Of a stretch of DNA of 64,000 nucleotides, positions 13,601 through 49,800 are shown in pieces. The stretch's first letter is position 1, and the number at the start of each line of letters is the position of its first letter. Source of the stretch: Cycas panzhihuaensis (taxonomy: Eukaryota > Plantae > Cycadophyta); the NCBI GenBank assembly GCA_023213395.1, contig CM041465.1, positions 94,433,741 through 94,497,740 of the forward strand, read 5' to 3'. A model generated the notes under the pieces. The model did no database searches, was not told where the DNA came from, and saw only the letters and a list, made by a program, of their open reading frames with translations. A program made the position numbers and the translations under genes.

Positions 13601-13799
13601 AGCAGTCCGGGCCAGCCCAAGTGATGAAAAAGCAAATTGATAAATTTTTTGAAGATAAATAAAATTTTCAAAACTCAATAATAATACAGTTTTTCTGCCT
13701 TTCGTCTTTTTATACATATTTGTTGGAGCGTTCAATGGAGCAGACCCATTTTTGATTTAAAGTCGATTACACATTTCATAGATCTTCAAACTCGCATTC

Positions 13800-16459: not shown

Positions 16460-17278
16460 GTCCCACCAACTTTTGCAAAGTTGCCAAAGCTTGCGAGGAA
16501 GAATGATACTACTGCTTCTCAGATAGATTCAGATGGTAGTTCTATACCGTCTCATAAGACTGTTTCTGAAAAAGAAGTCAAGTACAGTTGTTTAGTAGAG
16601 AAGCACATTGATCTGTCAGAGAAAAATGGCAAGCTTCCATCAGCTAGTGAGAGAACTCCCTATTTAAAAAAGGCACAGAAGGCAGCCTCAACAAATCGTT
16701 TAGGTGGAAATAACTTAAAATCTAAAGTTCCAAGTAATGGGAATATGAAATCAGTATTTATATATCCTGCTGAAACAGAGAGTTGTTCAACAAAAGCAGT
16801 TTGTGATGAATTGGAACTAAAGAATTCCAATGTGATTGAACATCCATCCCTAACCAAGGAAAGCAACAGACAAAGTGCTAATATGTCTTATGGCAAGACA
16901 CAGTCATTGCATGGTGACAGTCTGTTGGGTGGCAAGCAACAGGATTTAACAAATGATATATCTGCAGAATCCAAAGAGATGCCTGATGAGAGCAGAAGAA
17001 ATATTCAAGTTGGTGCAAGTGCTAACAGTGAAATGACCAAAGACAAAGGTGAATCACAGATGATTGTGAACACTCAAGTGAAGGTGGAGTTACAGAAGAT
17101 TGACAGTGCCAAAGACAAGGTTGCTGTACAGAAGAGCAATGGAGTCAGAGACAAAGACTATAATACGGGTATTACTGGAAATCGTCCCAAGCTTAAAGCA
17201 AAGGCTCAACAGCATGCCTCACCCAATGACAATCAAGAATCTAAGGACAGAATTGTTAAGCCAGCAAAACATGATTGA
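16460..17278 (+). CDS. WDL: WVD2-like / TPX2 domain protein, terminal exon with long disordered basic tail
   Basis: ctgcag acceptor. Begins VPPTFAKLPKLARK (family consensus IPPTRAKSPKLGRR) and is open for 272 codons to TGA (ORF 16439..17278). Confidence 0.88.
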   Translation, partial: VPPTFAKLPKLARKNDTTASQIDSDGSSIPSHKTVSEKEVKYSCLVEKHIDLSEKNGKLPSASERTPYLKKAQKAASTNRLGGNNLKSKVPSNGNMKSVFIYPAETESCSTKAVCDELELKNSNVIEHPSLTKESNRQSANMSYGKTQSLHGDSLLGGKQQDLTNDISAESKEMPDESRRNIQVGASANSEMTKDKGESQMIVNTQVKVELQKIDSAKDKVAVQKSNGVRDKDYNTGITGNRPKLKAKAQQHASPNDNQESKDRIVKPAKHD

Positions 17279-22700: not shown

Positions 22701-25700
22701 TAGATCATCTTAATTACAGAAACATCGCATTAATGAAAATGTTGAAAATGGTAGAAGGATTCCATTTATTTCATATTTAGAAGGTGTGTGTAAAGGGCGT
22801 ATGTATGGGAAGCATTATCACTATCCTTTTATTTGGGGTAGTGCTTGAAGAGCCAAGGAGAAGCTTAAACCCGTGTATACAGACTTGATGGAGCCCTTCT
22901 CAAACCCTTTCATATTAAAATCTTGATATACTTTGGTGTTTGTAGATGACTACACTAGAAAGCCTTAGGTTTACTTTTTCAAGAATAAGTTAGATGTGTT
23001 TGATTGCTTTCATGATTGAAAAGTAAGCATCAAAGATGAATGTGACAAAAATATAAAAATATTGATGAGTAATAATGGTAAAGAATATGACAATCGTGTG
23101 TTTAATCAGTTCTACTGAGATTATGATATAAAATAAGAGTTTACAGTCTTTTATATCCTACAATAGAATGGTGTTACAAAGAGAAATAACTGTGCCATGA
23201 TAGAAATGGCAAGGTGTATGATATATTAAAAAACCCATCACAATGTTTTGGATGTGTATTGTAACTCATTTACATTCTAAACGAGGTATCCACTCAAGCA
23301 ATTTGAAGCATGACCCTTGAAGAAAAATAGATTAGTCATTAATCAACCATTAGCTATTTGAAAACATTTGGGTACATAGCACATGCATATATCCTTGATG
23401 ATAATCACAAGAAGTTGGATTACAAGAGTTTAAAGTGCATGTTTATGGGGTATTTTGATCAGAATAAAGCTTGTAAACTTTGGGATCCGTAAGGGGAGAA
23501 AAATTATGATTAATAAGGATGTTAAATTTAATGAGTCATCAATGTATCATGCTAAGAAGTCATCAGAAGAGCCTTTTTACCCCCCACTACTTCCATTTCT
23601 GAATTCAACAGTTGAAGAGGATGATGAGCCAGTCACTATGATTCAAGAGTAGGTTGGATTGAGTGGAGAAGGTAATAGTGAGGCGCTATCACATGAAGAA
23701 GTACCTATAGCACCAAGTTATTATATACCATTATGGGCAAGGAAGACGGTAGAGGATTTCAATCTGATGATGTAGAACCTTGTTGATGATAGAAGAATTA
23801 TAAGCCAATATGTTTGTTAGAATTTAGTGGTCAATACTGATGACTCCAATGATCCTATTTTGTATGACGAATTAAAGGACAATCCACGATGGAGAGTTAC
23901 AATGGAGGAGTATGGCTCAATCATGAAGAATTCCACATGGGATTTAGTTCCCTTACCTCTGAAAAAGAACCTAGTTAAATGCAAGTGAATCTATAAGACA
24001 AAGTTCTGCTCCGATGGAAAAACAGACAAGCATAAGGCTCAGCTTATTACTGAAGGGTTTAAACAAAAGGAAGAAATTGATTATGAGGAGACATTTGCAC
24101 TACTCTCCATGATAACCACAATCCAATTAATCATTTTCTTAGTAGTTGCATATGGTTGGGAGTTACACCAGATGGATGTTAAGTCCACGCTTTTTAATGG
24201 GGAGATTTATATATTATAGCCTTTGAGATTCATTAAAAAAAGCTAAGTGCATCTTGTGTGCCATTTGAAGAAATCACTCTATAGCCTAAAATAATCACCC
24301 TATACTTGGTATGGTAAGATTGATGTTAAATTAAAAGAAGAAGGTTTTGTTGCTATAAACTTGGAGCCGAATCTGTATGTTAAAAGGAGTAGGACTTTGA
24401 TAGTCATTATTGTGTTATATGTTGATGATTTAATCATTGGAGGCAACTGTAATAAGACTATTATTCAAATTAAATCCAATTTAGGAGCTACCTTTGATAT
24501 GAAAGACTTCGGGCCTCTATATTACTTTTTTAGCATTGAAGTTAGGCAAATAGAAGATAGGATCGCGATGTTGTAGATTCAATATGTGAAGAACCTAATG
24601 GAGAAATTCAGGATACAGGATTACAAGCTGGTTGCAACATCATATGTTAAATGTGCAAAGCTGTAGAAAGACATGGCTAAATCCTCTGTAGATGGAATAC
24701 TATACCGTCAATTGGTAGGAAGTCTGATCTATTTGACTCATATCAGACTAGATATCACCTATGTTATTGGATTGGTTTCACGATATATGTAAAATCCTCA
24801 AGAACCACATTGGGTTACAACAATGTAGATTCTAAACTACTTGAAAAGAACACTTAACCTTGGTTTTCAACACCTTTGTGGGGAAGAGACAAAGTTGTAC
24901 GACTCTACTAATGTTGATTAACGAAGTGACTTTAATGTTAAAAAATTCACCACTGGATATATCTTTAGCATTGACAATGGATTTGTTTCACAGTAATCGA
25001 AGTTGTATGGTTGGAAGGTCTTTTTGAAGTTCTTGGAGTGTCATATGGAACCCCAATTATTTTTGTTAATAATCAAAGTATTACTCACTTATCAAAGAAT
25101 CATAAGTTTCATGCTTGTACAAAACATATTGAGATACAACACCACTGCATCCATGAACAGATCAAATTAGGGAAGCTGCAGGTCGACTATTGTCTGAGTG
25201 AATATCAATTTACAGATATCTTTACCAAAGCATTTACTGAAGATCAAGTCACAAAGACATGTACCAAATTGGGACTCATAGAAGTTATCCTTGAGGGGGG
25301 ATGTATCGACAAGGATAAAGGGATATGATATTTCAAACCTTTATAATAACTAAACTATAGTAGGTTCTCCATATTCACATTAAGAGGGGATGTTAGCGTG
25401 GCAGTTAATTATTAAGTCACTTGTTAATGTTAATATGTAGTTTAATTATGTAATTAACAAAACTGTGTGAGTTATTTAGAGGGACACAACCTTTAAGGGT
25501 TGACACATTTTGACAGATTATAAATATTCTGAAATCCCTTGTATATTCATATCAATCAAGTTAGAATCAATGTGATTGATAAATATTTGTGGTGGATTTG
25601 TTTCTGAAAGGGTTTCCCACGTATATCCTGTGTACTATGTAATTGTTCTCTGTTTATTTTGTTTACTTGCTTGTTGTGTATGGAAAAGATTTTGCAGTAG

Positions 25701-27066: not shown

Positions 27067-30000
27067 TGTTAGAATATTGAAGTACTAGGGAAATTTAAGG
27101 AGATATTTTAAGTAATGCACATTTATATGATGTAGGCTATAAATGTGGTAGGCTGCTACTCAAAAAGTAAAAGTGTATTACATAGAGTTGTGTACTATCA
27201 TTTGTACATATAAGATATTATGTCAAGTCAATAAAATAAAGGTATATCATGAAACCATTTATGATCCTGGTATTGTTTGCATATTATTTTTGTTTATTGT
27301 TATTTTATTATGGTATCAAAGCTAAAGTGATTATCAAAGCCAAAGTGAAATATCAGAGCTCAAAATGAAGATCAGAAAGATGTTATGTAGATTTGTCAGT
27401 TGTGAGGTGATTTTGTTGTATTAGTGAGCCTGTTGTTTTTAAGGAGGTGGTTTCGCAGAGCCTATTTGCTTGTGGTCTATTGTATTTGTTATCATAGGGT
27501 TTGGGGTAGAAACCTTAATCTATGAGATTGAGTGTGACCTAGTTCTATTTCCATGGAGGTGCATTTTGGAGGTCTTTTAAACCCAGTTGTTAACATTGCA
27601 TGCTGTTTAAACTCATTTGCATCTGTTTGACTCCATTTGGTCTCAAGTCATTTCAAGTCTATTTCATTTGTTTGGCACTCCATTCAACAAGCTATTCAAA
27701 GTTGTTCCATTGTGAAATCTGAGATTAAAGTTTTTGCATATATGTGACTATAAGTGGTGTGTTCGTTGTACATCCTTGATTTTTGGAGCTATGAGATCTT
27801 CGGTGTGCCAATGAATGTATCACCAAATTTATATGACTTACCTCAATCATTCGTGATGTTTATGTTCTCCATACGCCTTATGCCTAATTGTTGTTGTGAA
27901 GAGCACTGCTTATGTTAATGTTTTGCCCTATTTCATGAGTTGTGTTGCCTACAAAATTTGTGACTTACCGCTATCTGATCACTAAATGTGGGACTTGTTG
28001 AAGTGATCTATGTGTAAAGAATTTGCCCTGTTTGAGAGATCAACTATGTGTTTATGTATGTAGTATATGTTTGTTGTGTCATTTGAAGGCGTATTTCTAT
28101 CATTTATAAGAGTTGCAAGGTTTCATTTCTTTCACCATGAAGGTAGTCAAGGTTCGAATCCTAGTGTATTTTGTCTATCCGTAACACCACCTCATCTGTT
28201 AACAATCATCCACCATACATCGAATAATCGTCCAAATCATGGAAAACCCTACTTGAAGTGGTGACTCTGCCATCAAAGATTATTATAATTGAATTTTAGA
28301 TTGATTTTTGTTTAATTCAAGCATTTTTTATCTAGTTTAGTAATATGAGAATCAATTTTTCATGCGTACATTCATAAAAAAATTGCACATGTGTGGCTTT
28401 GAACTTAGTTTTTTTTTTCAAATGTTTTAGTTCATTAAACCGAACTAAAATCAAATTTGAAGTTTGCTAGACCTTTAGTGTGTAAGCCCACAATCACCTA
28501 CAAAGATCATGCGACCAGTGAAGGGTGTTAAAATCATAATGCGCTTAATTTTAAGTTTTCAAAAAGGTATCTCTACTTTTTTTTCTTTAATATTTTCTAA
28601 ATCAGAAGTTTATTTTTCGAATCGTCTGAATCATTAGAATCTTGACTCAAATGTCATCATTTCAAACTATGATATGAGGTATTTTGAAGTTGTGTTGATC
28701 AAGAATTTATAGTTTAAACTTGATACTTTATATCGGGATCATGCATGGTAACTAAGAAATTTTATCTTTTGCATTCAAATAAACATTCTTTGTACCTATT
28801 TTTTGAACCTAGGGGAAGTCCATATTAACCTTGGAGGCTTGTTATAAAGACAATTGACTGGCTAAGAATAATTATATTTGTATTTTGGGTTCTTTCAAGG
28901 ATAAGGAGGTAAGAGGAGGTTCCAAATTTGAGAAACAAGGTTGATATTTTGAGTATGACAGAATAGTATGTTTGTTTGCTTGGTTATGTGGTTGTATGTT
29001 GCACTGTTGACTAATTTACACTTGTAATCATGGATATAGAGATGTTAGTTCCCAGATGTCATAGAGGAAGTTATGTTTTATGGACATATAGAATGAAACC
29101 TTACTTTAAATCTAAGGTTCTATGGAAATTTGCTATAGATGGGTATGATGTTCTTTTTTAGTTTTATACTCACTTGATTGTTGATGAACTTAAAAAGAAA
29201 GACAAAGAAGCACTCTCTAATTTTGTTTCTACAATGGATGAAGCATTTCTTCCAAGAATTTATCATATTAGTATTTCTAAAAAAGCATGGCATATTTTGA
29301 AATCTATTTTTGATCCTAATGTTAAGCTACCTAATGAAAAGTTAGTGATTATTGAAGAGAGAAACAAAGCTAGTAGTGAAAACTTGGAACAACCATTTGC
29401 TTCAATGGAACATTTGAGGGGGGAGATTTAAAAGACTAAATTATCAAGTGAATTGATAAGATTCTCAAGATTTTTGAGTAAACGTTTAAGAAATTACAAG
29501 TATTCAAAGTGATAAAGTTCATATTGAGCAGGTATGTTAGGAAAATATGGTTGATGAATCTATTATTAAATATGATGAGACTATTGACGAGACCACTTAT
29601 CAATATGTTAAGTGTGATGAATCTGTTGTTGGATGTGAAGAACCTATTAATGGTTGTGATGATCAAGTAAAATATTCAATTCAAGATGTCAATGTTTCTT
29701 TACTTACTTCTACACATGTTTGTATTACTTTTAAGGAGATTGTATTTAAAGTCGAAGATGAATCAAGTTTAAATTTAAATTCAAGTATTATTCCTTTTAC
29801 TGGTGATTTATTTTTATCTATTTATGTTATTGATGATTTAAGTGATATTCCAATTTCAAGTATTGATTCAAGTTTGAGTATTCATGTTTTAAAAATCGAG
29901 TGGTACAATGATTCTAGTTGTTAAAATATTTAGAAAGATTCATAAGTTGATGAAAGTAAACAAGTTGTGATTGTGATTGAGTCTAATTCAGGTGGTATTC

Positions 30001-30696
30001 TTAATATAAAATTTGACAAGATCTCAAGTAATATAAAATGATGAATCTCAAATATTTGATAAAGTTGTTGATATTGAAGATAGAAATGTGACATCAATTA
30101 ATTTGAATATGAAAAAATGATCGATAACTTTCTTATTTATAGCTAAAACTAAGTACAAAGAAGTTGAAGTAGTAATTTATAATACAATTTATCTTAGAGA
30201 GATACTACAAGATCTACATCAAACTTGAATTGAATTGATAATAATTTACTTTGATAATTAAAATATTATACAGATGTTGAATAATATAGTTTTGCAAAGT
30301 AGAATAAAACAACGAATTCAATCATTGCTACATTTAAGAGTTGATATAATAAAAATAAATTGAAGATCAAGTTATAGATATCATTATTAAGACATTTTCA
30401 AAATAAAATGTTGCAAATTAAAAATTACATTTGTGTTTCTCAAATGTGCATTAAGGGGGAGTGTTAGAAATGTTGAAGTGTTAGAGAAATTTAAGGAGAT
30501 ACTTTAGGTAATACTTGCAAGCCACAAATGTAGTGGGCTCTCACACAAAAGACAAATGTGTATTATAAATAGAGTTGTGTATTATCATTTGTGCATGTGA
30601 AGCATTATCACAAATCAATAAAATGGAAGTATCTCATAATACAATTTATGATCTTAGTATTGTTTACATATTATTTTATTCATTATTATTTTATCA
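27067..30696 (+). mobile_element. Non-autonomous copia derivative D (gag N-terminus + RNase H C-terminal scrap, pol deleted), nested in the gypsy RT
   Basis: LTRs 27067-27310 and 30462-30696, PBS TGGTATCAAAGC at 27311, PPT TTAAGGGGGAG. Gag-like W..RMK.Y..SK.LW / KKKDKEAL / SKKAW.IL at 29030-29320 and EDQVIDI..K near 30365. No INT/RT. Confidence 0.88.
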
Positions 30697-31215
30697 TGGT
30701 ATTAGAGTATGTAAAATTTCATACAAATAAGATGGCTCACCTTGTTTATGTATAATTTATAAGGCTTTTAACAAGGTTACGATAAAAATTAATATTTGAT
30801 TTTTTAGGTTGATGCATTATTATATGAACTACATAGAACTTTTTTTTTCCTCTAAAGATTGATTGAAGACCAATGAATTATCGAATAAGGACCAAGCTAT
30901 CAGATATGTATATGAACACTTTTAAAACTCATAAGGTCATTATGTATTCAAAGCAATGTCATTTGGAGTTACTAAGGGTTCTACAACATTCCATGCTATT
31001 AAGAATAATGTTTTGGTCCATTTTTTTAATTTTTAATTTTGGAAATTGTCATTAGTATTCTTTAACAATATCATAATTTAGAGTTAATGTTAGGATAAAC
31101 ATGTTTTGAATGTTAGGTTAGTCCTATAAAAATTATCAAAAAATAAGTTATTTATAAAAAATTTAAATAGAGTTTTGATTAGTAAAAAATATAATATTCA
31201 TGACATATTCAGGGT

Positions 31216-33742: not shown

Positions 33743-34032
33743 TGTTAGAATAATATTTAATCCATAGTTATTGTAACCATTCATGTTGCATCCCTCAATT
33801 ATTACACACTCTTAATTGATATAAATAGGTACACAAGTGTTTCTCATAGATGAATACTCTTAATATTTGAGCAACTTTATGAATAATCACAAATTTTCAT
33901 ATATTTATTATAATTTTTCTCAAACTTCTCATGGTCTTTTATGAGATATATGTCTCTCTCTATATGTATATATTCATATTAAAAAATAATAGAAAAATAT
34001 AATAGTAAATATTTCTAACTTGGTATTAGAGT
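33743..34032 (+). mobile_element. LTR + PBS of a truncated LTR element
   Basis: TGTTAGAA...TTCTAAC(T) with terminal inverted repeat, followed by TGGTATTAGAGT at 34021. No partner LTR recognised. Confidence 0.6.
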
Positions 34033-35147
34033 GGAAACAAGTTTAAATTCACTCATGAAGCTAATATAGATTTGTTTAATCATCGAGGACATCATATTTA
34101 TCACCATTTTGGTAGGGTAACACCTACTCTTGTTATGCATATATTATTAGTTATATATTCTTATATATTTATATTTCAAGCGTGATAGTAATAAATATTT
34201 GATTATATATGTTTGTGATTGTTAAATATTATAAATATTTTAGACGAGAAATAGTAGCATAATATAGGTGAAAAAAAGTAAGAGAGAAGTACTTGCTTGG
34301 TTATTATTTTTTCCAATAGATTTGTATACGGTTTTTTGATAATATTTGTAAGCAATTTGGTTCAAGCTAATGGATAAGTTTTCTCTATGTTCAGTTAACA
34401 TTGTATAAGATATTATAGAAAAAACATGGCTATAAAAATCAAATGGTTAGCTTTAGTGCAAAGATAGTGCCTTGTGTTCAAATTCTTGAGAGTTGTTGGT
34501 GATTATTGGATTTCATTGGACATTGTGGGTTTCATGTAATAGTAGCAGTGAATAGAGGTGAGCATGGCCCTGTTAGCATATTAATCTTATGCTTTGAACC
34601 CATGCTTGTAATTCCTTAATAGTTATAGATGCCAAGTATCTTCTAGATATGACAATAAATAAAGGATTATATTTGATTATAGGTGCTCCAACTATAGGTG
34701 TGAAAAATTAAATATTTTTGTTTAACCTCTAAGGGCACTTATCATATCCTCTATGTTTAAAATATATGCTATTTTAGCCAATAACTATGGTAACTATTTA
34801 AGGGAATTTTTGGATGTGGACTTCAACACATATTAAGATGTGGGTTTGCTTTTACCAACAAGTACTATCATGGTGGTCTTTGGACAAGCTACTAGCTTAA
34901 TTTTTTGTTGAAAGAGTTATTTTTATGTTTCTGGGTGTAATGATAAATGATAAATGTATATTTTTAAATTTATATTTATGGGTTACATGAAAGATAATGG
35001 ATCAATACAACATAGTATTTGGCATTTTTTTGTTATTTTACTTATGGTTTTCTTAGCATGTTTGCTATGTTCGATAGTAGAAATTCATTACTTCGAGATG
35101 TGATCTAGTGTTTGATCCATCATATCCTTTATTGAGTGGAAAGAAAA

Positions 35148-38122
35148 AGTTGGGTGTAATATCTAATTACATTAACCTTATGTAAACCCTCTCTATTTCT
35201 TGTATTTTATATTAGAGTTTTAGGCCATCTTGATATGTGTGCCACCTCTAAGTAGACCAATGTGGTTCTCTCACTAGTGGTGAGCATGTATTATAAGTAT
35301 ATACTCTTCATTGTTACTAATTGAGTTTTGACCGATTCTCCACACATTGTATTTATTGTTGTACATACTTCATCATTTTATACTTTATTGCTTTATTTAT
35401 TTACTAACCATTAGGGTTTTATGTGATTATTACATTTCTAATTCTAACATGGTATTAGAGCCCAAGGTTAATCCTTGAGGACACCATTACAAACTCTAGT
35501 GCATTTTATCCTTATTTTTGAACTTTCAAGCCTTGTAATTTTTTTTTGATATGCTTGCTTAATGACTTTGTCAAGTTGAAGATCATTTCAAGTTACATCT
35601 TATGCATATTTTGTTATAGGACTATAATCAAGTTTTAAAGGGTTATTTTTGATGTTGATGAGAGGCTACTTTCAAGCCCATTTTTGAAGTTTTTTGAAGT
35701 TGTTTGAAGGAAGCTACTCAAGTGGACATCTTCCACATATGTGGCGCTATAATAAACTTGCATGTAGGTGAAAGTCCACCACATTCTTTGTGCAGATTCA
35801 ATTACTGTTAAGCTGCCTCCTTTGCATGTCAATGGACAAAATGCTGCAAGAACTGTTAACAGCAATTGAGAGAGTGCTTCTTGCTATCTAGAAGCCAGGA
35901 GTGACTTCAATTTAAAAGATTTATAGATATATAGGTCAATAAATATCATATTTCTGCTAATATGTACTATTTTAAATCAAAAAAATTATATTGTATTTAT
36001 GGCCTTCAAACTTGGCCTATGTTTTTATGTATTTTTCAAAGAAAAGGGGGGGGGGGGGGAGGGGGATTTTCCAAATTTTGTTGTTGAGCAGCCATTATAC
36101 CTGACTCACACTCTTTTCATCTCTTGGATCTATCCCCTACCATTAAACTATTGTAGTGTATACTTCTGTATGGGACTCTCCTGTTTCCTCAAAAAAGACA
36201 TACATGCATGTTCTAGCAAAGGTCATCTTCTATTGAAAAGCTCACCACAGACATGTAGTACATTTTTATAGGAGCAAGATTCATCTTACTTATCAAGCTC
36301 ATATGAAGAATTTAGACTTTTTTATCGAGGATTTATAGACCTTGGTTTTGACGCAGTTGGATAAGGCTGCCTGAGCTTAAAGCAAATGCCTATCTGCAAA
36401 TAGAGGAGTGTAATTCAATCTCTAGCTTTGGTCTGACAGAGATGCTTGCTAGTTGTATTAGAAAGTTGAAAGTACTATCTTTAATTAAATGTGAGGGGAT
36501 CAGGGAAATGCACACAGAATGCCAGTATCAGGTGGCACCTTTGGTGATCAATGGTGAAGTTGGCTTCTTTTTCTTAGGTTCTATCTAAAGGCTGTTTGAA
36601 GACATCTAAGAGCTCTCGCCACAGACTGTGGCTTCGGATAACATGGATGTAGACATAATGTTTTAGCAGCAAGTTCAAGCTCATTAGAAAATGGTAGCTT
36701 GACTTCCAGCAATTGAAGAGATTCATACTCTCCTTGACCGTAGCTTACATGGCATGCTCTCTACCTTTTCCCATAAATATGAGGGCTATCCATCAGGGTC
36801 AATGGTTGATTTCTCTTACGATGAGGATGGGATTCTGATTTTAGTAATTAGTGGCCTTTCACTTCACACTAAGGACCTGGAGGCTTGCCCAAAATGTTAA
36901 CTTCTTGTAGCAAAGGATCCTATAGACAAAATAGATTTGGTGATCACACTACATGGTGATGCAGTTTTTGTTCCTATCAACGAAGGAGAAGCCATTTGAA
37001 CCTTCTACTTGAAAAAGCACCCAGAAGCATTTTGGGTTGATTTTGGTAACTTCCGATTTGTTTGCATTGTACCAAAGATGGTGCGATATGTGTTTGGAAT
37101 TGTAACTAGCATGTAAGTATCGGGAGAATTTAACTGGGATGAATACAAAAATACAAACATTGATTCGATATCCAAGTTTTCAAATCCTATAATGTCCCAC
37201 ATGAATAAGGAATCTGCACTCACAGTAATGCCCCTTCCTCCCTATGAATCATTAAAATCTTTTAATATCCGTCATTGCTCAGGGAGTCAAAAGGCAAACA
37301 AAGGAAGATTGATAATGGCCACCCCTTTAATGCAAACCTGTAATACTACAACTTCAAACTTTGGGCCTTAAAACTAGTGGTAAGTTGTTATCCCAAAGAG
37401 GTATATTTTAGCCCATGTGTCACATGTTTGAGGCCATAGTGCCATTGTATTTCTAGCCATTAGATGCCAAAGAAGCGTTAGTCCTATCAAACAAGAGGTA
37501 GGACACACTTTTAAAGTTACTCTTACCTACCATGTGCCATGCACCGTGTGCCTTATATATATTTTTCTTCTTGCACTCCCATATGAGCAAGGGGTGGGAT
37601 ATTTTTCAGTTACTCTTATCAGCTCTTGATTGATCCATATATACAAAGGGAGTTCCTACCTAACTGGTAGTTGTAGAAGCTGAGGACCCATGCATTCCAG
37701 TAGATAGACTCCACTTCATATGGATTTCACTAGTTTTTTATTCTGTGCAGCAACATTTGTGATCCAACAAACTTTTGAAGGCTCGAGCTTATCATTGATG
37801 TGACAATATTTATGTAATTGACTATTACAGGTGGGAATATTAGGTGTAATACTTAGTTACATTAACCTTATGTAAACTCTCTCTATTTCTTATATTTTAT
37901 ATTAGAGTTGTGGGCCACCTCTAAGTAGACCAATGGGGTTCTCTTACTAGTGGTGAGTATGTATTATAAGTATGTACTATTTATTGTTACTAATTGAGTT
38001 TTGGCCAATTCACCACACATTGTGTTTATTGTTATACATACTTCATCATTTTGTATTTTATTACTTTTTTCATTTACTCACCATTAAGGTTTTATGTGAT
38101 TATTACATTTCTAATTCTAACA
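35148..38122 (+). mobile_element. Non-autonomous LTR element E carrying captured host mRNA sequence (no gag/pol)
   Basis: LTRs 35148-35449 and 37838-38122 (the 3' copy has a 17-bp deletion). PBS TGGTATTAGAGC at 35450, purine tract ACAGGTGGGAA before 37838, perfect TSD GAAAA (35143-35147 / 38123-38127). Confidence 0.93.
36643..37211 (+). pseudogene. HOZ: Processed (intronless), 3'-truncated pseudogene of plastid HugZ-like heme-binding/degrading protein (HOZ; PNPOx-like split-barrel family)
   Basis: One frame of 189 codons with 6 stops and no frameshift: LPAIEEIHTLLD..GMLSTFSHKYEGYPSGSMVDF..SLHTKDL..PKC*LLVAKDP..LVITLHGDAV..YLKKHPEAFWVDFGNFRF..PKMVRYV.G..SGEF..EYK..SHMNK. This is collinear with my recollection of Arabidopsis At3g03890. 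Likely transit-peptide sequence extends upstream to ~36300. Confidence 0.88.
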
Positions 38123-39443
38123 GAAAATGCCTTAACCTTCATTATTCCTAATTAGATAATTATATAGTGCCACAGGTAAGAATAAATCATGTTGGGATAA
38201 CCCCCAATGTTTCTTAAAAGACGTGCACTTAGGGCCCCTCAAAGCCACCTTTGAGACTCCCTAGGGCACCTAGATTCATATATATCAGGCCACCTTGAGA
38301 TTCCAAATGCTAATCCACTACTCTTAAGGTACACGTTTGTATTTTTAATTGTATTTTTTAATATATTATTTCGAATATTATTAGATAACGTGCAGGTCGA
38401 GTTAAGGCACTTACTGCCTCTGCAAAATTTCCTATAAATAGGGTGGAAATACCTCCCTGGTGTTTTTTGACACTGCTAATGATTCAGAAGAATATGTTAA
38501 CTCAAGTATCATGAACTCACTGTTGTAGTCCCACTGCACCTCTGCATCCTTCATTTGGTATTAGAGCGACTTGGTTAGTATGCGATCAATTAACTTTTGA
38601 GAAGTTTATGTGAGATTGACGGCTCATCTTCTGTATACTTTGGTATGTATATAATATCATGATTTATTAAAGGTTAAACCTTATAAAACCATTACTTATA
38701 TTATTTGACTTTTCTTTTATATATATTTGTCTATTATACCTATACCATCTACTTGATTTCATTTGATTCTAGCTTCTCAATCTTTGATCAAAACTATGTC
38801 ATATGACTACTTGTTTTGATCAGAATTGAATCCTCTAGTCGATAATGAAAACGGTTCATGTTTTCATTGATTATATTGAGAGATATATCTCTCTGAGTCA
38901 CAGGCAATTATTTGTGACCTGTTTCACTCCTCTGCTTCATTCTCATCCTATAAGCATATGTTTGATATGAAAATTTACTTATGCCTTACTATCCATGATA
39001 CTCAGCCTCTCCTAAAGTTTTGTGACAAACCATGTCTTTTGTGGTGAGATTGGATCAATAGAGTCTCCATGCCCTCATCCTTCACTGTTTTCTCATTATT
39101 TTTGTTAATACAAATATTTTTTTTTGTGTTTCTTTTTAAATTGGGTCTGCATTGCTTGGGCGCCCCCAGTAAAACCATTTAAGCATAGATCTGTAATCAA
39201 ATAAATCCATTTAATATCTATCTTACCTCTCTCTATTAGTCGTTTCCCTCTTCTGTTTCTATTTTTCTCATAAAAATGAAGGTAAACCTCTATGTTTTCG
39301 ATCTCCTTTCGATTGGCTAGCATTATATGTTGCAGCACCCCTCGTCTCACTGTGGCATAGAGTTCTCGATCGGGTTTCATCACATCTAGAATCTTGTCTT
39401 CGTTTTGTTTGCCTTCCATTTAACGTTCTTCTTTTTTCATATA

Positions 39444-39446
39444 GTA

Positions 39447-39481
<35 letters not shown>

Positions 39482-39509
39482 CTATATATATATATACACA
39501 CACACATAC
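39444..39509. repeat. Palindromic compound microsatellite (TG)n(TA)n(CA)n
   Basis: gtatgtgtgtgta(ta)n...tacacacacacatac, self-complementary. Confidence 0.9.
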
Positions 39510-41905
39510 CATTATTTTAGATCGATCTATAGACTGATCTGTGTAGAGGACTGAAGTACCCCTCTCTGTGTCTAAAATTTAATGTAATCCCATCATTTCG
39601 ATCATATTTTCTCATCGTTGTTCTCGCTCTGGAGTTGTTACACAGGTCGTAATAGTTCGAATGACGTCCGCTATTTTTTTAAATTGATTTTATAACACCT
39701 TATTTTAATTATCTTTCATAAAGGTTATATACAAAAATTTAATTACTTTTAATAAAGTTTCAAATCCTTTATTTAGAGCTTAGCCCTCTCAAGCTTCAAC
39801 CCCCGCCCCCGTGCTCCTCCATGTGTCCATAAAGAGTTTAATAAAGGGGTCAATCAATGTTATAAAAAGTTTTCTTTTATATTTTTCAATTTATTTTTCT
39901 CTAAAGGGGTGACTAGCATATTTTCATCTCTAACTTCTCATTAGAGTCTTAGATTTTGACAAAACTAGTCTTATCCTAACCATAGTTTTGTGAGCTTCAC
40001 CGTAGACTAGTCATTTTCTAGTTTTGGAGATGTTTTGATTAGTTTTTAAGAGTTTAAAGTCACTTCATTTTTTCAGCCTCTAGTTTATTAATTATAAAGA
40101 GGTCACTTTACTATTTTTACTATATCTTTCTCGTTTGGAATCCATTTTATGATCTATTAGTTTTGTTAGAAAACTGATTAAGCTCTTTTCATGCTGATAT
40201 AATCTCTTAAGTGATTTGAAGTCTTTTTGTAGATATTACAGGCCGGTAAAGTTAAAGTTTTGAATCAAGACTAGTTGTTCATGAATCAACATTTTTTGAA
40301 GTGTTTTCTTCAAGTTTTTTTTAGAATAAATCACATTAAAAGGTCTTCTATCTGTAAGTGAGCATTTTTTATACCTTTTATAAAGTTATAATCAATTTTT
40401 ATAATTTTTTAAGTCTTGTATCTCCTATTTAATCCCAAAAAGGGGTTTTTACATATATTTTTTAAAATCTTGAGTTATAGAAATTAGTTTTTTGAATGGT
40501 CAAATCTGTCAGAAAGAAAATTTGATATTCTTTAGTTAAGATAAATTTCACTTAATTCTGAGTTCATTTAGTAGGTATTTAAAGCAAGTTATTTTTAGCC
40601 CTTTATTTAGTCCTTATCGGTATCATTATATAACTTTTTATGTATTACATGATCTCAAAAGGTTACATTTAATTTATTATTTATAAACCATCTTATTCTA
40701 AAAGCCTTTATTATTCCTTGTTTATATTTTTAAGTTCCTTTTTACAACAAGAAGCTAATTTTTTAATACTTCAAGCTAAAAGGACCCATTTAATTAAATG
40801 GGTACATTTTTGTATTCTAGTTGTTCATTTTCTATATTTCCTAGAAGAAACTTGTCATTCTTCAAGCATTTTTATCATCAAAAGCAAGAGTTACACTTCA
40901 GTTTCTTATTTTTTTACTATTTTCAAAAGAATAACTACTCATTTTTTGCATTGATAAAGGTCATTCCTTTTGTTTACTCAAGCTACTTCTTAACTTTGAA
41001 AATTCAAGCTTAGTTAAATAATTTCATTGATTTTCTATATTTTTAGTATGAAGGGAAATTATATTTCAAATATACACGGTTAAAGCCTTATTTGGTTTGC
41101 TAGAAAGGTTATTACTTGTATATTCTTTTGAAAATTTTATTATATCATTTGTTCATTATTACTTAGTAGATATTGTCTTCCTTTTAGTTATTTTTTTGTA
41201 TAAAAAGAATTTTTCAAAACCTTAAGTAATATCACAAGTATTAATTAATTTATTATCATATTAAAAAGATAAATCATGAATTGAACAACCTTCTTTTCCA
41301 GCCTTACAAGGGAAACAGTTAGGACCCCTAAAGTTACCATCTCGCAGACGCTAATTGGCCTACTCATATTGGATGAGGACAACCATTAGCCATCAGGTGT
41401 ATTAAGTGGCAAGCTGGGGTACAAAACCTTTTCCTTATTTAGTGTTTGGAGACCAAGGCTAGACCTGGAGAGGGTGAATGCCTTGATTCGAGTAACATTC
41501 ACTACTAGAACTATCGCTAGGTATAAGTCTGACACAGGTGGGTCCACAATTTAGAGGGGTGTAAAAACCTTCTTAGCAACCTGTGTACTGAGGTATATTA
41601 AGCCTTGCGATCATGTACCAGTATATTGGGTCCTTGTTTTACCATTTGTGAGTAGGCACCACTAGATATGATAGTAACTAAAAGTCTCCCTAGGAGAATC
41701 CTAAATTTAGAACCTATTAGCCTTATTAAGTACTAGTTCATTTTTTAAATTTTGGGTGAAACTTGGATTATTTAAACTTGGTTTAAATTTTAAATTCAAA
41801 ACCCTTTCAAACTTCAAATTCAAATCTTTCTTGAAATTCAAATTTAAAACTTTTGTAAACTCTATCCTTATTTGTCACCTTTGTTCAATAAAACCTTAGT
41901 TCACC

Positions 41906-44900
41906 ATGGCATCAAGTTTTGGCAACATGATTATTCAAAAATTTGATGGGAATAATTTCTTAAATTGGAGTAGGAGGATGCGACCCATCCTCATAGCTAA
42001 TAAAATTTAGGAGATTGTGAAAATATGATACAATGAACTAGGTCCAAATCTAATTGATGGGGACAAAGCCACCTATAAGGAAAATGTTAAGAAGGATAAT
42101 GAATCCTTGGCACTTATCTTTTGTGCACTTGAAGATTATGTAATCCCTGATGTTATTAAGTCTGTCAAATCAAAGGAACCTTGGGACACACTCTAGTTAA
42201 TATATGGAGGAGCAACCTCTTCCAAACTTCAGAATCTTAGAAGCAAGTTTGAAAACTTGTGCATGTTACCCACAGAATCTGTAATATAATTCATGATAAA
42301 AATACAAGATATAGTGAATTAGATGAGGTCTCTTAGAGATACCCTAACATAACAACGAATAATTGATTGGATTGTAAGATATATTGGTGTAGTGAGACAT
42401 TTTGAAATGGTTGCCACTAGTATAAGTATATCAAAAAATCTAAGCATATTAAAAGTGGTATAACTTAATGTTATGCTCATGTTAATAGAAGAACAACAAA
42501 ATGCCAATGAGTCACTTGAACATGCCTTTTCCATAAAGGCTTGTATCTAATCCAATTCTCAAGCAGAAACTTCAAGGTCTAAAGAATCACCTCTAAGAAG
42601 AAGGGTTGGGAACCTTAGAAGGGAAGCTAGGTAAGATCCTCCCAAATAGTAAGCCCCTCATCAAAGGAGGTAAGGAGGACACCAACAAAATGAGAACCCT
42701 CCTAGGTATACAAACCAAAGGAGACTATTTGAAGGTCATACTAGTTATCCTAATTGTCAATCCTCGAGGTCCAATCAAGAATACTATGACAATAGACTAA
42801 GAGATAACCCTCCTCAACCTTATGAGGAAAGGGGGAGATCCTCCAATATTGATCGATCTCATGCAAGAAGCAGGAGATTAAGCTATGGAAGGAGAGATCC
42901 CTTATATTGTACATATTGCCATAGAAGTGGCCATACTGAAGATAAATTTTTCTTAAAATATGAATCACCCACTAGAGTACATACCCACAACACAACTAAG
43001 TCAAAGGACAATAACAAGTTGTTTCTATCTAGCTTCACTGCTAAGGAGGAAGAAGATGATAGTTGGTACATTGATTCAGGATGTTTAACTCATATGACAC
43101 ACAAAGAACATTTGTTTCATACTTTAGACAAAAATAGGAAAGGGTCCATTATGTTTGGAGATAATACCTCCTATGAATTAGTTTGTAGAGGTAATATAGC
43201 CTTGATGACAAATATAGAAGAATATAGACATCTAGATGATGTCTTATATGTCCCAACTCTAAGGAAAAACTTGCTATCAATAGGGCAGATGATGGAACAT
43301 GACTACAAAGTCATTTTTGACAATGGTGAGTGTGTAATAAAAGACAAAAAGAGAAATGAAACTATTATTGCCAAAGGGAATATGACCAAGGATTGCTTGT
43401 TCAGACTTATACTTACTCCTTCAGATACATATGCTTTAAGAACTTTAGCTAACTTGGATAACGACTTGTGGCATAGAAGATTTGGCCATCTCAATTACAA
43501 TAGTTTGGCCCTTATTAAATGGATGGGCATGGTCAATGGTTTACCACATATTGAAGTAAATAAAAACTTATATGAAGGGTGTCTTCTTGACAAACACCAT
43601 TGGGAAAGCTTTTTAAATTTTAGTTATCGAGCGTTAGGTCTAATCTAATTAGTATACATAGATATTTGTGGTCCTATGAATACGCCTTCACTAGTAGGTG
43701 CAAAATACTTCATCACATTCATTGATAACTTCACAAGGAAGACATAGGTGTTCTTCCTCAAGTATAAATTAGATGCCTTCTAACACTTTCTTGATTTCAA
43801 AACCTTTGTGGAGTGACAAAGTTGATATGAACTTCTATCCCTAAGATTGGATAATAGAGGATAGTTTATCTCTAATGCATTTAAAGATTATTATGTACAC
43901 CATGGAATTAGAAGATAGTTTATTAATCCCTATACCCCACAACAAAATGGTGTAGCGGAAAGGAAAAATTACACTATAGTCGAAATGGCTAGGTGTGTGC
44001 TTAAGGACAATAATTTGGGCCATGAGTTTTAGGCTGAAGTAGTTCACACAACTGTTTATTTACTCAGTAGGTGCTCCACCAAAGCTCTTAGGTGGAAAAC
44101 TCTAGAAGAAGATTGGATTGGTTACAAACCAAGCATACATCATTTTAGAGTATTTGGATGTCTTACTTATAGCCACATTCCTAATCAACAAAGATCAAAA
44201 TTGGATGATTACAACATCAAATATATTTTCCTTGGCTATAGTAAAACTTCCAAGTCATACAAGGTATGTGATCCCAAATCAAGAAAAGTCATGTTAAGCA
44301 GGGATGTTAAGTTCCAAGAAGATACCTACTATTAAGACAACTAAGAAAAGAAAAAGGAGGTTGTAATAAAGTTTAATAAATCTTCTAAAACCAAATATAT
44401 GTCTCCTATGTTTGATTCTCGGAGAAGCATCAATGAACCTAGTGGGGAGGGAACTTCAACTCAATCTCTACCACAAAACCTACTAAAATAGATTCATCAG
44501 AATCATGACTTGGGTAACATCTTGGGTAATAATCAAAGATCCATGCACCCACATAGGGTTAATTGACATGAATGTTAGAAAAACGTTATGGAAGATGAAT
44601 ATAATTCCATTGTTAAGAATGACACATGGGAGCTAGTTGATTTATCCCCAATGAGTATAAAATGGGTCTATAAAAGTAAGTTTTGCTTGGATGGATCCAT
44701 TGACAAGTATAAGGCTAGATTGATTGCAAAGGGGTATGTTAAAAACGAAGGCATAAACTATACTAAAACTTTTACCCCTGTTGCTTGGATGGAATCTATT
44801 AGAATGATGATAAGCCTAGCAGCCCAAATAGGTTGGAAAGTTTACCAAATGGATGTTAAAAGTGCCTTCCCCAATGGCTACATCAAAGAAGGCATCTATG

Positions 44901-46033
44901 TCACCCAACCCCTCAGTTTTGAAGTTAGGGGGGAAGAGAACAAATTGTATAAACTAAAAAAGGCACTCTATGGTTTAAAATAAGCACCAAGGGCTTGGTA
45001 TTTCTGTATAGATAAATATTTCAAATATTAAGGTTTTGAAATATCCCAAGCAGATCCTAACTTATATATCTAAATCAAGGGAAGTTCATTCCTTATTGTA
45101 GGTCTTTATGTGGATGACCTTGTATATACTGGAAATGACTCCCACCTCTTGCATCAATTCAAAGATGCTATGTGTAAAGAATTTGAGATGATAGATTTAG
45201 GACTTATGCATTACTTCCTAGGATTGGAAATTTGGAAAGACAAGAAGGGAATTTTCATCTCCCAATGTAGATATACCTTAAACCTATTACAAAAGTTTAG
45301 AATGACAAATTTTAAACCATTGACAACCCCAGCTGAAATATGAATCAAATTCTCCAAGACAGATGACTCTACTTCAGTTGATCTAATACTTTACAGATAA
45401 CTTATTAGTAGTTTGACATATTTAACATCCACTTAACCAGATATAACACACTCAGTTAATGTTTTATCTAGGTTCATGTGAGATCCAAAAACCTCTCACT
45501 AGCAAGCAACTAAGAGAATCCTTCAATATCTCAAAGGAACTCCAGATTATGGGCTATAATACAAAGCTTTCCCAAATTTTTAGTTGAATGGCTATACATA
45601 TTTAGATTGGGTAGGAGATGTTGATGACAGAAAGTCTACAACAGATTATATATTCAGTATGGAATCAGCAGCAATAGCATGGAGCACAAAGAAGCAGAAT
45701 ACGATTTCCTTATCTACATTCGAGGCAGAATATAAAGCAACAGTAGCAGGTACATGTGAGCCAGTTTGGTTGAGAAGACTATTACAGGATTTTCAACTTA
45801 AACATCAAGGTCCCACTAGAATTTGGTGTGCCAATCATACCACCATCCAAATGGTAAAGAATCCGGTCTTCCATGGCAAAATAAAATACATCGAGACTCA
45901 ATACCATTTCATTCGGGAACTAGTACAATCAGAAGAAATTAAATTGGCCTATTGTAGCACTAAAGACCAGATAATAGATATATTTACAAGGCTTTGGGAA
46001 AAGTCAAATTCTAAAAATTTAGAAAAAGTTTAG
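41906..46033 (+). pseudogene. copia F gag-pol with many stops
   Basis: MASSFGNMIIQKFDGNNF.NW; WYIDSGC..HMT; WHRRFGHLN; QQNGVAERK; KWVYK..KYKARLIAKG; YVDDL; AEYKA..; KYIETQYHFIRE. Confidence 0.95.
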
Positions 46034-46824
46034 GAGTCATTCATATTGGACATTATGGGGGAGAATGTTGGGATAACCCCCAATGTTCCTTAGAAGACTT
46101 ACACCTAAGGCTCCTCAAAGCCACATTTAGGTCTCCCTAGGGCACCTAGAGCCACACACCAGGCTACCTTGAGCCTCAAAATACCGACCCAGTACGCTTA
46201 AAGTACGCGTTTATATTTTTAATTGCATTTTTTAATATATTATTTTGAATATTATTGGATAACGTGCAAGTTGGGTTGAGACGCTTATCGCCTCTCCAAA
46301 ATTTCCTATAAATGGGGTGGGAATACCTTCTTGGTATTTTTTAACACTACCAATGATTCAGAAGAATATGTTAACTCAAGTATCATGAACTCATCATTGT
46401 AGTCCTGCTTTGCACCTCTGCATCTTTTAAATCAAGCACACTAAAGAAATTAAAATACGTAGCACAAAGAATTTTAAACAATGGTTATTTATTCATAAAT
46501 AATAATTTTCTAAAGTTTTATGAAATTAAACTTGATTTGATGAATATGTGAAGTCTATGCCCTTTAATTTTAGCCTATGGTAAAATGAATTACAGTGTTA
46601 AAATTACAAAAAATAGTTAATATTAATGAAATGTGCCAAAGTTTACTTTTAGCCCTTTTAAGTAATTTTACAACTCATTTTGACAGTTATTCAATAATAT
46701 GATTAGTTTTGGCTTTGCATGAGCATTAAGGAAAGTATCATGCTCATATAATTTTGGTTTCATATTAGTGAGAAGTTATTTTCTATGAAGTACAAGAAAT
46801 TAAAGGTGTTTTAATATCATATTA

Positions 46825-49800
46825 TGTTGGGGGTTAATGCTCATCACCCCACTCCCACCTTTTACACATATGAGCGCACACATATTAAGGTAAGTTAGGC
46901 AAGGTTAATGTTAACTTGAGTTAAGTATTATTTTAATGCTGTTTAAATTTTAGAGGTTGAGGAGGTTTCTCTTCTCCCTCAAACTATATATTTTCTGGGG
47001 TGACTAACCCTGGTGTCTTTTAACACCACTAATATTTGGAAATCTATTGTACTCTTACAAGATGGATTGAATAATATGTACTTTGCTTATGTTTTCTCAT
47101 GATAGATTAGCATATAAATACCTACTCCGTTCTTCACTCCTTGTATATGTTTTCCTTCATTTAGTATTAGAGCTAGATCTTAGCTCCAACATTGGCCACG
47201 ACAAGTTTATTCAATAAATTTTTAGTTTATACTATATTTTTCAATAGTTTTTCTTATATTTCTTTTGATAAATAATTGATTTTTTCATATATACAATCTT
47301 ATTAGTCATGTTTTTTCAAGTATTTATTGTAAATTAAGTGCACTTAGCCTGATAATAGTTTGGTATAATTGGTTTCTGAATTTAATTGATGAAATATCAA
47401 GTTTTCTATTATTTTACATTATTTTTTTAAGGGTTAGACAAGGCTATGTGATTTTAACAGGGTGGTGAAGCTTTTGCATTGCTTGGAACTATAGCATGTG
47501 ACCACTCATTTGAATGCTCATTGAACCATCTTCATAATGCATTCAACGGATTTGAAAATCGTTGCCTCTACATGGAGATATCTCACCCAGAAGCTTAGTT
47601 GCTTAGTTTTGGTAGTGAAACCCCTTTGCCCCCTTCTCATTTACTTATTTTTTCTCATTTTAATTGTTATTTCATTGATTGAACTTGGGTGTTGGCCTCT
47701 TAGGGTCTACGCAAAGCTATCTCAGGGTCGTTTTAACTTACCTTTCAGGCCATATAACCTCCTAGTGCATGTGCAACCCTCATTGGATCCACATCTCTAT
47801 TTTTAGCATATAAGGACTAGATCTTCATGAAAATTTATAGGGAGCTAGTTATTGAGGAGATCTAGAGGTCTCTCAAGTTTTGTTAGGATCTGTTGCTTGT
47901 GTGAGGAGTACGAGCTACGTGAAATCACCCTTATGTGGACTCACTGGTAAACCCTGACATGATCTTATTTTTATGTATTTTTATAAATATTTTTTAAATA
48001 TTTTCAATTGTTCAAAGGTGCCACTGTTAAATAGACTTTTATTGATTAAGTCCATGTCAATTTGATGAATGTTTAGTTATATAAATTTACTCTATTAATT
48101 ATTTTATTACATTGGTTCCCATTTCATTATTTTTAAAACCATTATTTGTCAGTTTAGAACCAGCTTATACTTCTTTTACATTGCCTACAACTATAGCATA
48201 TGACTACTTGTTCTACTCGCAGTGGATTTATCTAACTATTGGAAAAGAATTCATCTTGTTTCATTGATTGTATTATGATATCGCTTCTGGAGCCAACACA
48301 TATCTATTTTCAGCCATTTTTTGTCTAGAAGCTTGTTTTAATTCTACAAGTAACCATTGCTTGTGAAATTTTATCAGCTTCGAACCATTAGGCAGATCAA
48401 TCTACATTTCAAGTTTCATGAAGATACGTGCTTCCAATGAGGAGTTTGAGTTGTTAGAACCTTTATATCCAAGGTTTTCTTAATTTTCCTTTATTTTTTT
48501 CATTTAAAATAAATAATTTTTTATTTTTACATTTTGGGCCTGTGAAGTTGGGCGCCCCTATATAGTAAGCAAAATAGAAGATTTTTGGCTGCTTTCAATG
48601 ATTGTTCTATCTAGATCTGCTCTTTGTTATCAAATCATTCTATTTATTGTTCATCACCATATACCCTCTTAAACAAGCTTAAAATCAACATTTCTAATTC
48701 ATTTTTGCTCATTTCAACTCCAGATTTGAGTCCACAGTGCCTTGAAACCCTTGTCTACACTTCTCTAATCTATTGTAGGCCTCATATTTACTCCAAATCA
48801 TCCTTTGCGTCATCACGCAGATCACACGACCTCCGTGTGTTAAACAAAAATGATTTTTTAATGTTTATTTGTTATATTAAAGCAATATATATTATAACAT
48901 TAAATTATTAATGAAATTCAATTACTTTTTATAATATTTGAAATCCATGATTAAATGGGCTTAACCCCCTTAGTTATTAGCCCATAATTTTGGTCTACAT
49001 ATGACCTTGTCTTAAGCTCTTTAAGAGACTATATTTTTTAAATTTTCAAGATATTTCCTTCGCTTTGGGTACCCTTGTTGAGTGACAAATATCTTTTGGC
49101 TATTTGAGGCTTATTGCCCTCACAAATATCTGTTTTTTGGTTTAAATCAACCCCATATGACTGTGCACCGTAATTATTAAAAGGGGCTAATTTGATTTGT
49201 TAAATTTTTTTTTATAACTTTACCTTAAGAGATATTATCGCATTTAATAGTGTATCTCATCATTGGCATATTGAATTTTAGTGAAACTGGTCTCATTGAG
49301 ACTATATTTCAGAGTGCTATTAATCGGTCAAAGTGATCCATTCTTTCATCTATTATCTTTCTAGCCATAAAGAGGTCTTCTTACAAATTTTGTAATAACT
49401 TTGTCATATAAACTCTATTTTTCAAACATCATATTCGTTGGAAAGGTGATTCAGTGTACTACACATTAGAATTAGGTTTATTGCATTTTGACATCATTTT
49501 GAAGGTTTTTAAAGTTGGTCAACTTGAACTTTTTGTTAAGCTAAGACATGCCTATGTTTTATAACTTTTTAAGTATTTTATTATTTCAAGGATTATACTT
49601 GAATCATTATTTATTACTAATTGATTCATAGAGTTATTATTGGTTCTTACATGTATTTTTAAGCTATTTTGCAGTCAAGAGTTATCTTTTTCAGCACCTT
49701 AAGCTTCTACCAACCTAAGTGATGCAAATTCAACAAACATGTACAATCTATATCAAATCTATTTATTTCTTATATTTTTAATTGAATACATACAACTTTT

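What the first reader, a model, noticed from the sequence alone, without database searches (positions are those of the whole stretch)
35148..38122. LTR 'cargo' element: a host HOZ mRNA retrocopy mobilised between two LTRs with PBS, PPT and TSD
Seen: a complete integration unit (paired LTRs, tRNA-iMet PBS, purine tract, exact GAAAA TSD) whose 2.4-kb interior has no gag/pol but a single-frame, intron-free 189-codon copy of a plastid HugZ-like heme protein that stops abruptly at SHMNK. Known: LTR elements can capture spliced host mRNAs by template switching during reverse transcription (maize Bs1 is the classic case), and plant HOZ orthologues are, as I recall, multi-exon. Inference: this is a member of a non-autonomous family that packaged and amplified host cDNA. 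It could be a source of retrogenes or of siRNAs against the parental heme-metabolism gene.
Basis: partly seen in the sequence, partly recalled or inferred. Interest (0 to 1): 0.8.

Follow-up and report, generated by a model that had tools for sequence, protein, structure and literature searches.

The report
Jumping gene carrying spliced host-gene mosaic
An old, dead jumping gene in a gymnosperm genome carries a mosaic of at least three host-gene scraps, including an intron-free piece of the heme gene HOZ wedged inside a piece of an ethylene-signalling gene, likely picked up from messenger RNAs while the element was being copied, which is a known kind of accident.

Summary
The LTR unit is real: LTRs 90.5% alike, GAAAA target duplication, primer site, no gag/pol. 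The HOZ piece (36625-37205) is in one frame but has six stops. Genomic contigs of related plants show that the parent HOZ gene has introns at five places in this stretch; the window and a transcript contig have none. So the processed-copy reading holds.

HOZ plus an unidentified 111-nt piece sits inside an EIN3-binding F-box (EBF) fragment, which resumes with nothing lost. A third transcribed gene's fragment (GATA-like, by recall) lies upstream. Both borders of the inner insert show 6-10 nt of likeness to EBF, as template switching predicts.

The backbone is highly repeated; the HOZ cargo is rare, with a few diverged sister copies that share the junctions. Age about 23 My at a borrowed rate. 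It is a decayed pseudogene; small-RNA effects are untested.

This is a Bs1-type, LTR-mediated retroposition chimera, a known and common process in gymnosperms. The scan noted the same process earlier in ray genomes with other genes, not this sequence. Interest 0.33.

The parts
35143..35147 (+). Target-site duplication, left copy (GAAAA)
   Evidence: chance 0.2-0.3%
35148..35449 (+). 5' LTR, 302 nt; starts AG (not TG), ends CA
   Evidence: very many variant contigs in three DNA runs
35450..35461 (+). Primer-binding site, tRNA-iMet type (canonical form recalled), one mismatch
   Evidence: similar sites follow other LTRs in the window
35462..35909 (+). 5' internal backbone of a highly repeated family, no gag remnant detected
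   Evidence: 43-63 variant contigs at 35810 in each of three DNA runs
35910..36150 (+). Less repeated internal stretch with a G-run (36046-36065) and a 35-nt match to an RNA contig (36109-36143); origin unassigned
   Evidence: tables 2, 3, 7
36151..36310 (+). Cargo 1: 160-nt piece of a host transcript (positions 376-533 of a 2234-nt contig), two 1-nt frameshifts; resembles GATA26/27-type transcription factors (recalled, untested)
   Evidence: record 12 (16 differences, 2 gaps); record 9
36319..36401 (+). Cargo 2a: EIN3-binding F-box (EBF) fragment, first piece
   Evidence: record 10; tblastn to Ginkgo aa 417-445 and Cryptomeria EBF1 aa 407-435
36392..36507 (+). Cargo 2b: EBF fragment after a 70-nt loss bounded by a 10-nt overlap
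   Evidence: record 10 (positions 1390-1279); Ginkgo aa 463-500
36514..36624 (.). Segment D: unidentified; matches DNA contigs that continue differently on both sides; no RNA contig covers it
   Evidence: records 14, 15, 17, 24 and loose ends; no Pfam hit in six frames
36625..37205 (+). Cargo 3: processed HOZ1 pseudogene piece (about aa 91-285 of 353-360), five parent introns absent (36687/8, 36774/5, 36873/4, 36969/70, 37126/7), six stops, ends in mid-exon without poly(A)
37209..37278 (+). Cargo 2c: EBF resumes exactly where piece 2b left off
   Evidence: joint 36503->37209 in one RNA and two DNA runs; Ginkgo aa 499 onward
37279..37419 (+). Unassigned low-copy stretch
   Evidence: not identified
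37420..37828 (+). 3' internal backbone of the highly repeated family, no pol remnant detected
37829..37837 (+). Degenerate polypurine tract (8 of 9 purines)
37838..38122 (+). 3' LTR, 285 nt; starts TA (not TG), ends CA
38123..38127 (+). Target-site duplication, right copy (GAAAA)

Best explanation
This is a dead, non-autonomous LTR retrotransposon whose interior is a mosaic of host-gene fragments, with an intron-free HOZ piece nested inside an EBF piece, likely built by successive reverse-transcriptase template switches onto co-packaged host RNAs and likely re-copied as a unit afterwards. Shown: the integration unit, the three transcript-matching fragments, the loss of parent introns, the nesting, and sister copies that share the junctions. 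Inferred steps: (1) a helper element, probably Copia-type like its neighbours, supplied the enzymes; (2) an earlier copy took up the EBF and GATA-like pieces; (3) while copying the EBF piece the enzyme jumped onto HOZ RNA at a 6-nt shared word in mid-exon, copied back through five splice junctions and segment D, and returned to EBF at a 10-of-11-nt likeness slightly downstream, leaving a short imperfect duplication and no EBF loss; (4) a chimeric RNA of this kind was integrated here about 23 My ago (borrowed rate); (5) it was silenced and decayed. Whether D-HOZ came from an alternatively spliced host RNA or from another chimeric element is open.
For: Parent introns. Splice-site letters are shown at three places: 36873/4 (acceptor), 36969/70 (donor and acceptor; acceptor in two runs), 37126/7 (GC donor). 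Two more, 36687/8 and 36774/5, are inferred from piece ends. These intron-bearing DNA contigs carry the same variants as the RNA contig, which runs 36622-37205 without a gap (51 differences in 584). Nesting: the EBF RNA contig is contiguous across 36503->37209 and EBF proteins align on both sides in order. Junction likeness: the HOZ RNA continues CAGGGA beyond 37205 and the EBF copy left of the insert has the same word (chance about 0.2%; the window shows two transitions in it). At the left border, 0 of 1009 cargo 20-mers and 24 of 20000 window 20-mers reach the observed likeness (post hoc). No poly(A): longest A-run is 4. Not an assembly artefact: 96-99% identical DNA contigs from other runs cross all four internal gene junctions (X1 record 4; X2 record 1, X3 records 12 and 16). 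Sisters at 84-88% identity cross HOZ|EBF (X1 record 5, X4 record 31) and D|HOZ (X1 record 3; X5 record 24). Decay: 40 of 60 listed differences from the RNA are C>T or G>A in the window, against 9 the other way. The model matches Tan et al. 2016 (PMC5131818, passages).
Against: Tan et al. report replacement of element sequence, never interruption without loss; here EBF is interrupted with a 20-24-nt imperfect repeat that could be read as a target duplication. One DNA contig (X5 record 26) has the intron before 36970 but none at 37126: an assembly chimera, an intron-loss variant, or a partly spliced copy. The D|HOZ junction may be a splice junction, not a switch: D's outside contig continues GT after CAG, and the Gln there is invariant in 14 of 14 aligned sequences. 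Re-copying after capture rests on sisters being more diverged (0.148) than the LTR pair (0.101), z only 2.0; cargo also evolves faster than flanks (2.9% against 1.0% between species), so the order is not secure. No sister was seen with its own LTRs or insertion site. No whole genome was held. The RNA run's type is the tool's guess, and only about half of each DNA run was read.
Confidence: 0.72

Rival explanations
1. The D-HOZ cDNA was inserted at the DNA level (LINE-1 machinery or break repair) into an EBF-bearing element already in the genome; the LTR element only carried it.
For: No EBF sequence is lost and an imperfect 20-24-nt repeat flanks the insert. A LINE-like element lies at 3-2524. 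Non-canonical retrogenes without poly(A) or target duplication predominate in gymnosperms (PMC13477047, passages).
Against: No poly(A). The 3' end is in mid-exon at a 6-nt word shared with EBF. The distal half of the repeat belongs to D's own outside contigs, which match from 36514, so it reads as microhomology.
Confidence: 0.13
2. The element captured genomic DNA with introns, and the introns were spliced out of the element's own transcript in a later round.
For: The D|HOZ junction looks like a splice junction. One contig looks partly spliced (X5 record 26).
Against: No intron is left in the window or in the four sister pieces that cross parent intron sites (X1 record 3, X4 record 31; X2 record 7; X5 record 26 only at 37126). 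At least one parent intron exceeds 850 nt (X2 record 6). Three different genes would each need a DNA capture.
Confidence: 0.08
3. The mosaic formed once, and the sister copies come from segmental duplication, so the cargo was never re-mobilised by retrotransposition.
For: No sister was seen with separate LTRs or target duplication; the divergence ordering is weak (z 2.0).
Against: Sisters differ in internal structure: a joint 36285->36400 in two runs (29 letters on the short side, below the tool's 31), a contig joining gene-C-like letters to 37226, and longer EBF continuation. Copy counts fall stepwise from the LTRs inwards.
Confidence: 0.07

Closest known systems
Maize Bs1 (seen only through PMC13317346 and PMC5131818 passages; the original papers were not held)
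   Same: LTR element with partial exonic pieces of three host genes.
   Different: Bs1's chimeric gene is transcribed and translated; this copy has many stops and no RNA holder was listed. Whether Bs1 has one fragment nested in another I could not check.
LTR-mediated retroposition (Tan et al. 2016, PMC5131818, passages)
   Same: Partial processed mRNA pieces, no poly(A), about 6-nt microsimilarity at switch points, several parent genes, further copying as a non-autonomous element.
   Different: Plant and old. The inner insert interrupts earlier cargo without loss, whereas their cases replaced element sequence. The outer cargo-to-backbone junctions were not resolved here.
TE-captured gene fragments in gymnosperms (PMC13477047, passages and section 26)
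   Same: Same class and scale: about 400,000 captured fragments per genome; 13.68% of host TEs hold two or more.
   Different: In the passages I read, that survey counts captures and does not dissect junctions or intron loss per element.
HOZ1 heme-degrading proteins (PDB 6m09, 9bl1; PMC11602992, passages)
   Same: Split-barrel region in frame, 55-65% identical to plant HOZ1 proteins.
   Different: Lacks the transit peptide and nearly all of the C-terminal DUF2470/DRI domain; six stops; a pseudogene.

Membership tests
LTR retrotransposon (non-autonomous) | Two direct LTRs | tested here: met
   258 of 285 sites
LTR retrotransposon (non-autonomous) | TG...CA termini | tested here: inconclusive
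   Both end CA; starts are AG and TA, each one change from TG at different positions; one related contig shows TG after the purine tract (table 5c)
LTR retrotransposon (non-autonomous) | 4-6-bp target duplication | tested here: met
   GAAAA
LTR retrotransposon (non-autonomous) | Primer site and purine tract | tested here: met
   Primer site with one mismatch; tract degenerate
LTR retrotransposon (non-autonomous) | No gag/pol | tested here: met
   (with positive control)
Ty1/Copia lineage | Copia-type RT or domain order | not testable with these tools
   No coding remnant; inferred only from neighbours and similar primer site and tract
LTR-mediated retrocopy (Bs1/Tan type) | Parent introns absent | tested here: met
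   Three introns with splice-site letters, two by piece ends; one contrary contig at 37126
LTR-mediated retrocopy (Bs1/Tan type) | Microsimilarity at switch points | tested here: met
   6 nt at HOZ|EBF, 10 of 11 at EBF|D; outer junctions with the backbone not tested
LTR-mediated retrocopy (Bs1/Tan type) | No poly(A) or LINE hallmarks | tested here: inconclusive
   No poly(A), but a 20-24-nt imperfect flanking repeat
LTR-mediated retrocopy (Bs1/Tan type) | Further retrotransposition of the chimera | tested here: inconclusive
   Sisters share junctions; their insertion sites were not seen
Functional retrogene | Intact reading frame | tested here: not met
   Six stops in HOZ; frameshifts in cargo 1 and EBF
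siRNA-producing captured fragment | 21-24-nt RNAs matching cargo and donor | not testable with these tools
   No small-RNA data
GATA26/27-type factor (cargo 1 parent) | Homology to named GATA proteins | not tested

The most novel reading that the evidence does not exclude
The family is a long-lived cDNA collector whose members swap cargo cassettes with each other during co-packaging, and the EBF-D-HOZ-EBF mosaic began as one continuous chimeric reading frame that was favoured. EBF piece 2b, HOZ and EBF piece 2c are still in one frame (chance 1 in 9). It would be a gymnosperm counterpart of Bs1, with the order of captures readable from nested junctions and with small RNAs aimed at heme, ethylene and transcription-factor genes at once.
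Probability: 0.1. Interest if true: 0.6.

Novelty: new member of a known kind. Interest (0 to 1): 0.33.

Why it matters
It is a well-resolved plant example of repeated RNA-level gene capture by an LTR element: parent introns, junction words, nesting order and sister copies can all be read. Gymnosperm surveys count such captures in the hundreds of thousands, and this case favours RNA-level template switching, including insertion into earlier cargo without loss. It is not a new gene and not a new mechanism.

Tried and rejected
No whole genome was held, so no genome-wide sister search was possible. No RNA holder was listed for this stretch; no conclusion drawn. The first EBF search found 2 candidates and 0 hits; HMMER on representatives found 11 LRR proteins, and one of them led to named EBF proteins. 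Pfam on 12 short cargo frames gave 0 families; PDB on the EBF piece gave 0. Segment D and cargo 1 remain unnamed by any search. A metagenome scan for the LTR-end/primer motif gave 2 loci that share only that motif with the window. The scan's own notes held nothing by sequence or place. Rejected: unrelated solo LTRs (target duplication, primer site, repeated backbone); assembly artefact (independent contigs cross the junctions); intronless parent; D as HOZ's ordinary exon 1 (the HOZ RNA contig has other letters before 36622, despite a weak BLASTP extension). Read depth was not used as a copy number. The original Bs1 papers were not held. Searches listed no paper on this element or on nested cargo by title or abstract start; that library is partial, so this is weak. 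Supplements of PMC13477047 (capture tables) were not read and could list this locus type.

Full report
THE UNIT. Two direct repeats bound the finding: 35148-35449 and 37838-38122, 258 of 285 sites identical, 20 transitions, 7 transversions, one 17-nt indel, K2P 0.103 +/- 0.020. GAAAA flanks both ends (chance 0.2-0.3%). A tRNA-iMet-type primer site (canonical form recalled) follows the 5' LTR, and a short interrupted purine run precedes the 3' LTR. Neither LTR starts with TG. Six-frame Pfam found only a CREG beta-barrel. tblastx against neighbouring elements found no gag/pol remnant, while a control did. The window is a nest of old elements, several with Copia-type domains. The best protein hits are from gymnosperms; no call names the species. 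At the rate used in PMC9023351 (2.2e-9, passages) the insertion is about 23 My old (14-33); at an illustrative 1e-9 it would be 51 My.

THE HOZ PIECE. It matches PtHOZ1 and AT3G03890 in one frame; 5 of 6 tblastn queries align without gaps over about 200 codons. It has six stops and lacks the transit peptide and nearly all of the C-terminal domain. I laid contigs of six public runs in two calls: X1, X3, X4, X24 on 34400-38900 and X2, X3, X5, X24 on 36215-37330. About half of each DNA run was read, and the tables are cut (one search shows 29 pieces, 27 hidden; 24 loose ends, 26 hidden). A 1173-nt contig of the RNA-type run (type guessed by the tool; it has no cover on the left flank) matches 36622-37205 without a gap, 51 differences in 584, and goes on as HOZ on both sides. 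DNA contigs that share its variants match only exon-sized pieces. Splice-site letters are shown at 36873/4, 36969/70 and 37126/7; piece ends imply introns at 36687/8 and 36774/5. So the parent has introns and the window does not. One contig (X5 record 26) has the intron before 36970 but not the one at 37126; I cannot explain it.

THE MOSAIC. A 3063-nt RNA contig matches 36319-36401, 36392-36503 and 37209-37278; the last two are adjacent in the transcript (positions 1279 and 1278). The joint 36503->37209 is also seen in DNA contigs of X4 and X5. Ginkgo and Cryptomeria EIN3-binding F-box proteins align to the pieces in order (Ginkgo aa 417-445, 463-500, 499 onward). So a 705-nt insert splits an EBF fragment with nothing lost. 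The insert is segment D (36514-36624, unidentified) plus HOZ. A third RNA contig (2234 nt) matches 36151-36310; it resembles GATA26/27-type factors from memory only. All three pieces are 9-10% from their transcripts (91 of 1007). Contigs 96-99% identical to the window cross the four internal gene junctions (X1 record 4; X2 record 1, X3 records 12, 16), so the mosaic is real. Such contigs occur under three species labels. One contig runs from the left flank 30 letters into the LTR, one short of the tool's bridging rule.

JUNCTIONS. Beyond 37205 the HOZ RNA continues CAGGGA; the EBF copy left of the insert has the same six letters, and the window shows TAAGGA at the right border. Chance of six shared letters is about 0.2%. 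At the left border the first 20 nt of the insert resemble the EBF continuation; 0 of 1009 cargo 20-mers and 24 of 20000 window 20-mers score as high (a test made after seeing it). The distal half of that likeness lies in D's own outside contigs, so I read it as the word used to return to EBF. There is no poly(A). The D|HOZ border shares CAG; D's outside contig goes on GT, and the Gln there is invariant in 14 of 14 aligned sequences, so it may be a splice junction. D's other outside end has a donor-like word on the minus strand, so its orientation is open.

COPIES. LTRs and the adjoining 400-450 nt on each side are highly repeated (43-63 variant contigs at 35810 per run); 36100-36150 shows 2-11; HOZ positions show 0-3 (table 3). 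Five hand-picked pieces at 84-88% identity are intron-free or cross the chimeric junctions (162 differences in 1208, JC 0.148). I left out of that pool two gene-C sisters, four short X3 pieces and the odd X5 contig. Nine near-identical pieces pool to 2.9% and three flank pieces to 1.0%. Sisters are more diverged than the LTR pair (z 2.0), which suggests the mosaic existed before this insertion; since cargo evolves faster than flanks, this is weak. Some sisters are rearranged (tables 5 and 7). Forty of 60 listed differences from the RNA are C>T or G>A in the window (p 9e-6 against the reverse), as expected of methylated dead DNA. Stops at 36664, 36685 and 36700 are shared with near-identical copies in other runs.

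MECHANISM AND COMPARISON. Tan et al. 2016 (PMC5131818, passages) describe partial mRNA copies inside LTR elements, median 6-nt microsimilarity, several parent genes and further copying. Bs1 holds pieces of three genes (PMC13317346, passages; originals not held). Gymnosperm elements hold about 400,000 captured fragments per genome, 13.68% of host elements with two or more (PMC13477047, passages). Rice and sorghum captures often become pseudogenes (PMC3726574, passages). HOZ1 is typically single-copy and plastid-targeted (PMC11602992, passages). This locus fits that model (0.72). It differs in that the inner insert interrupts earlier cargo without loss, which keeps a DNA-level insertion alive (0.13). 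Two earlier notes of this scan describe the same process in ray genomes; I did not check them and they did not change my reading.

VERDICT. A real feature, richer than first read but of a known kind: a decayed Bs1-type mosaic. No coding function today; small-RNA effects untested. Interest 0.33.

Noticed in passing
window 16424-17278 (+): 284-aa open frame that reads like a host exon; no Pfam or PDB hit. With other short frames at 12107-15022 it may mean the whole element nest lies in or near a long-intron gene.
   Followed up: partly
window 33743-34032: An LTR-like end with a primer site (34021) about 1.1 kb upstream and no partner LTR in the window; the element may sit inside an older decayed element.
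   Followed up: partly
window 5466-10651, 19783-25699, 27067-30702, 38189-46427, 46821-51506: Five more LTR pairs, all on the + strand, 75-90% alike; Copia-type Pfam domains in four of them.
   Followed up: partly
window 3-2524 (-): LINE-like element with DUF4283 and endonuclease frames.
   Followed up: no
window 37126/37127 (parent gene): The parent HOZ intron here appears to use a GC donor (X2).
   Followed up: no
window 36109-36143: 35-nt match to a further RNA contig; may be a scrap of a fourth or fifth host gene.
   Followed up: no
window 36571-36664: A DNA contig (X3 record 17) crosses D|HOZ and then leaves HOZ after 40 nt, hinting that the D-HOZ join was reused in another chimera.
   Followed up: no
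window 39441-39512: 72-nt palindromic (TG)n(TA)n(CA)n microsatellite.
   Followed up: no
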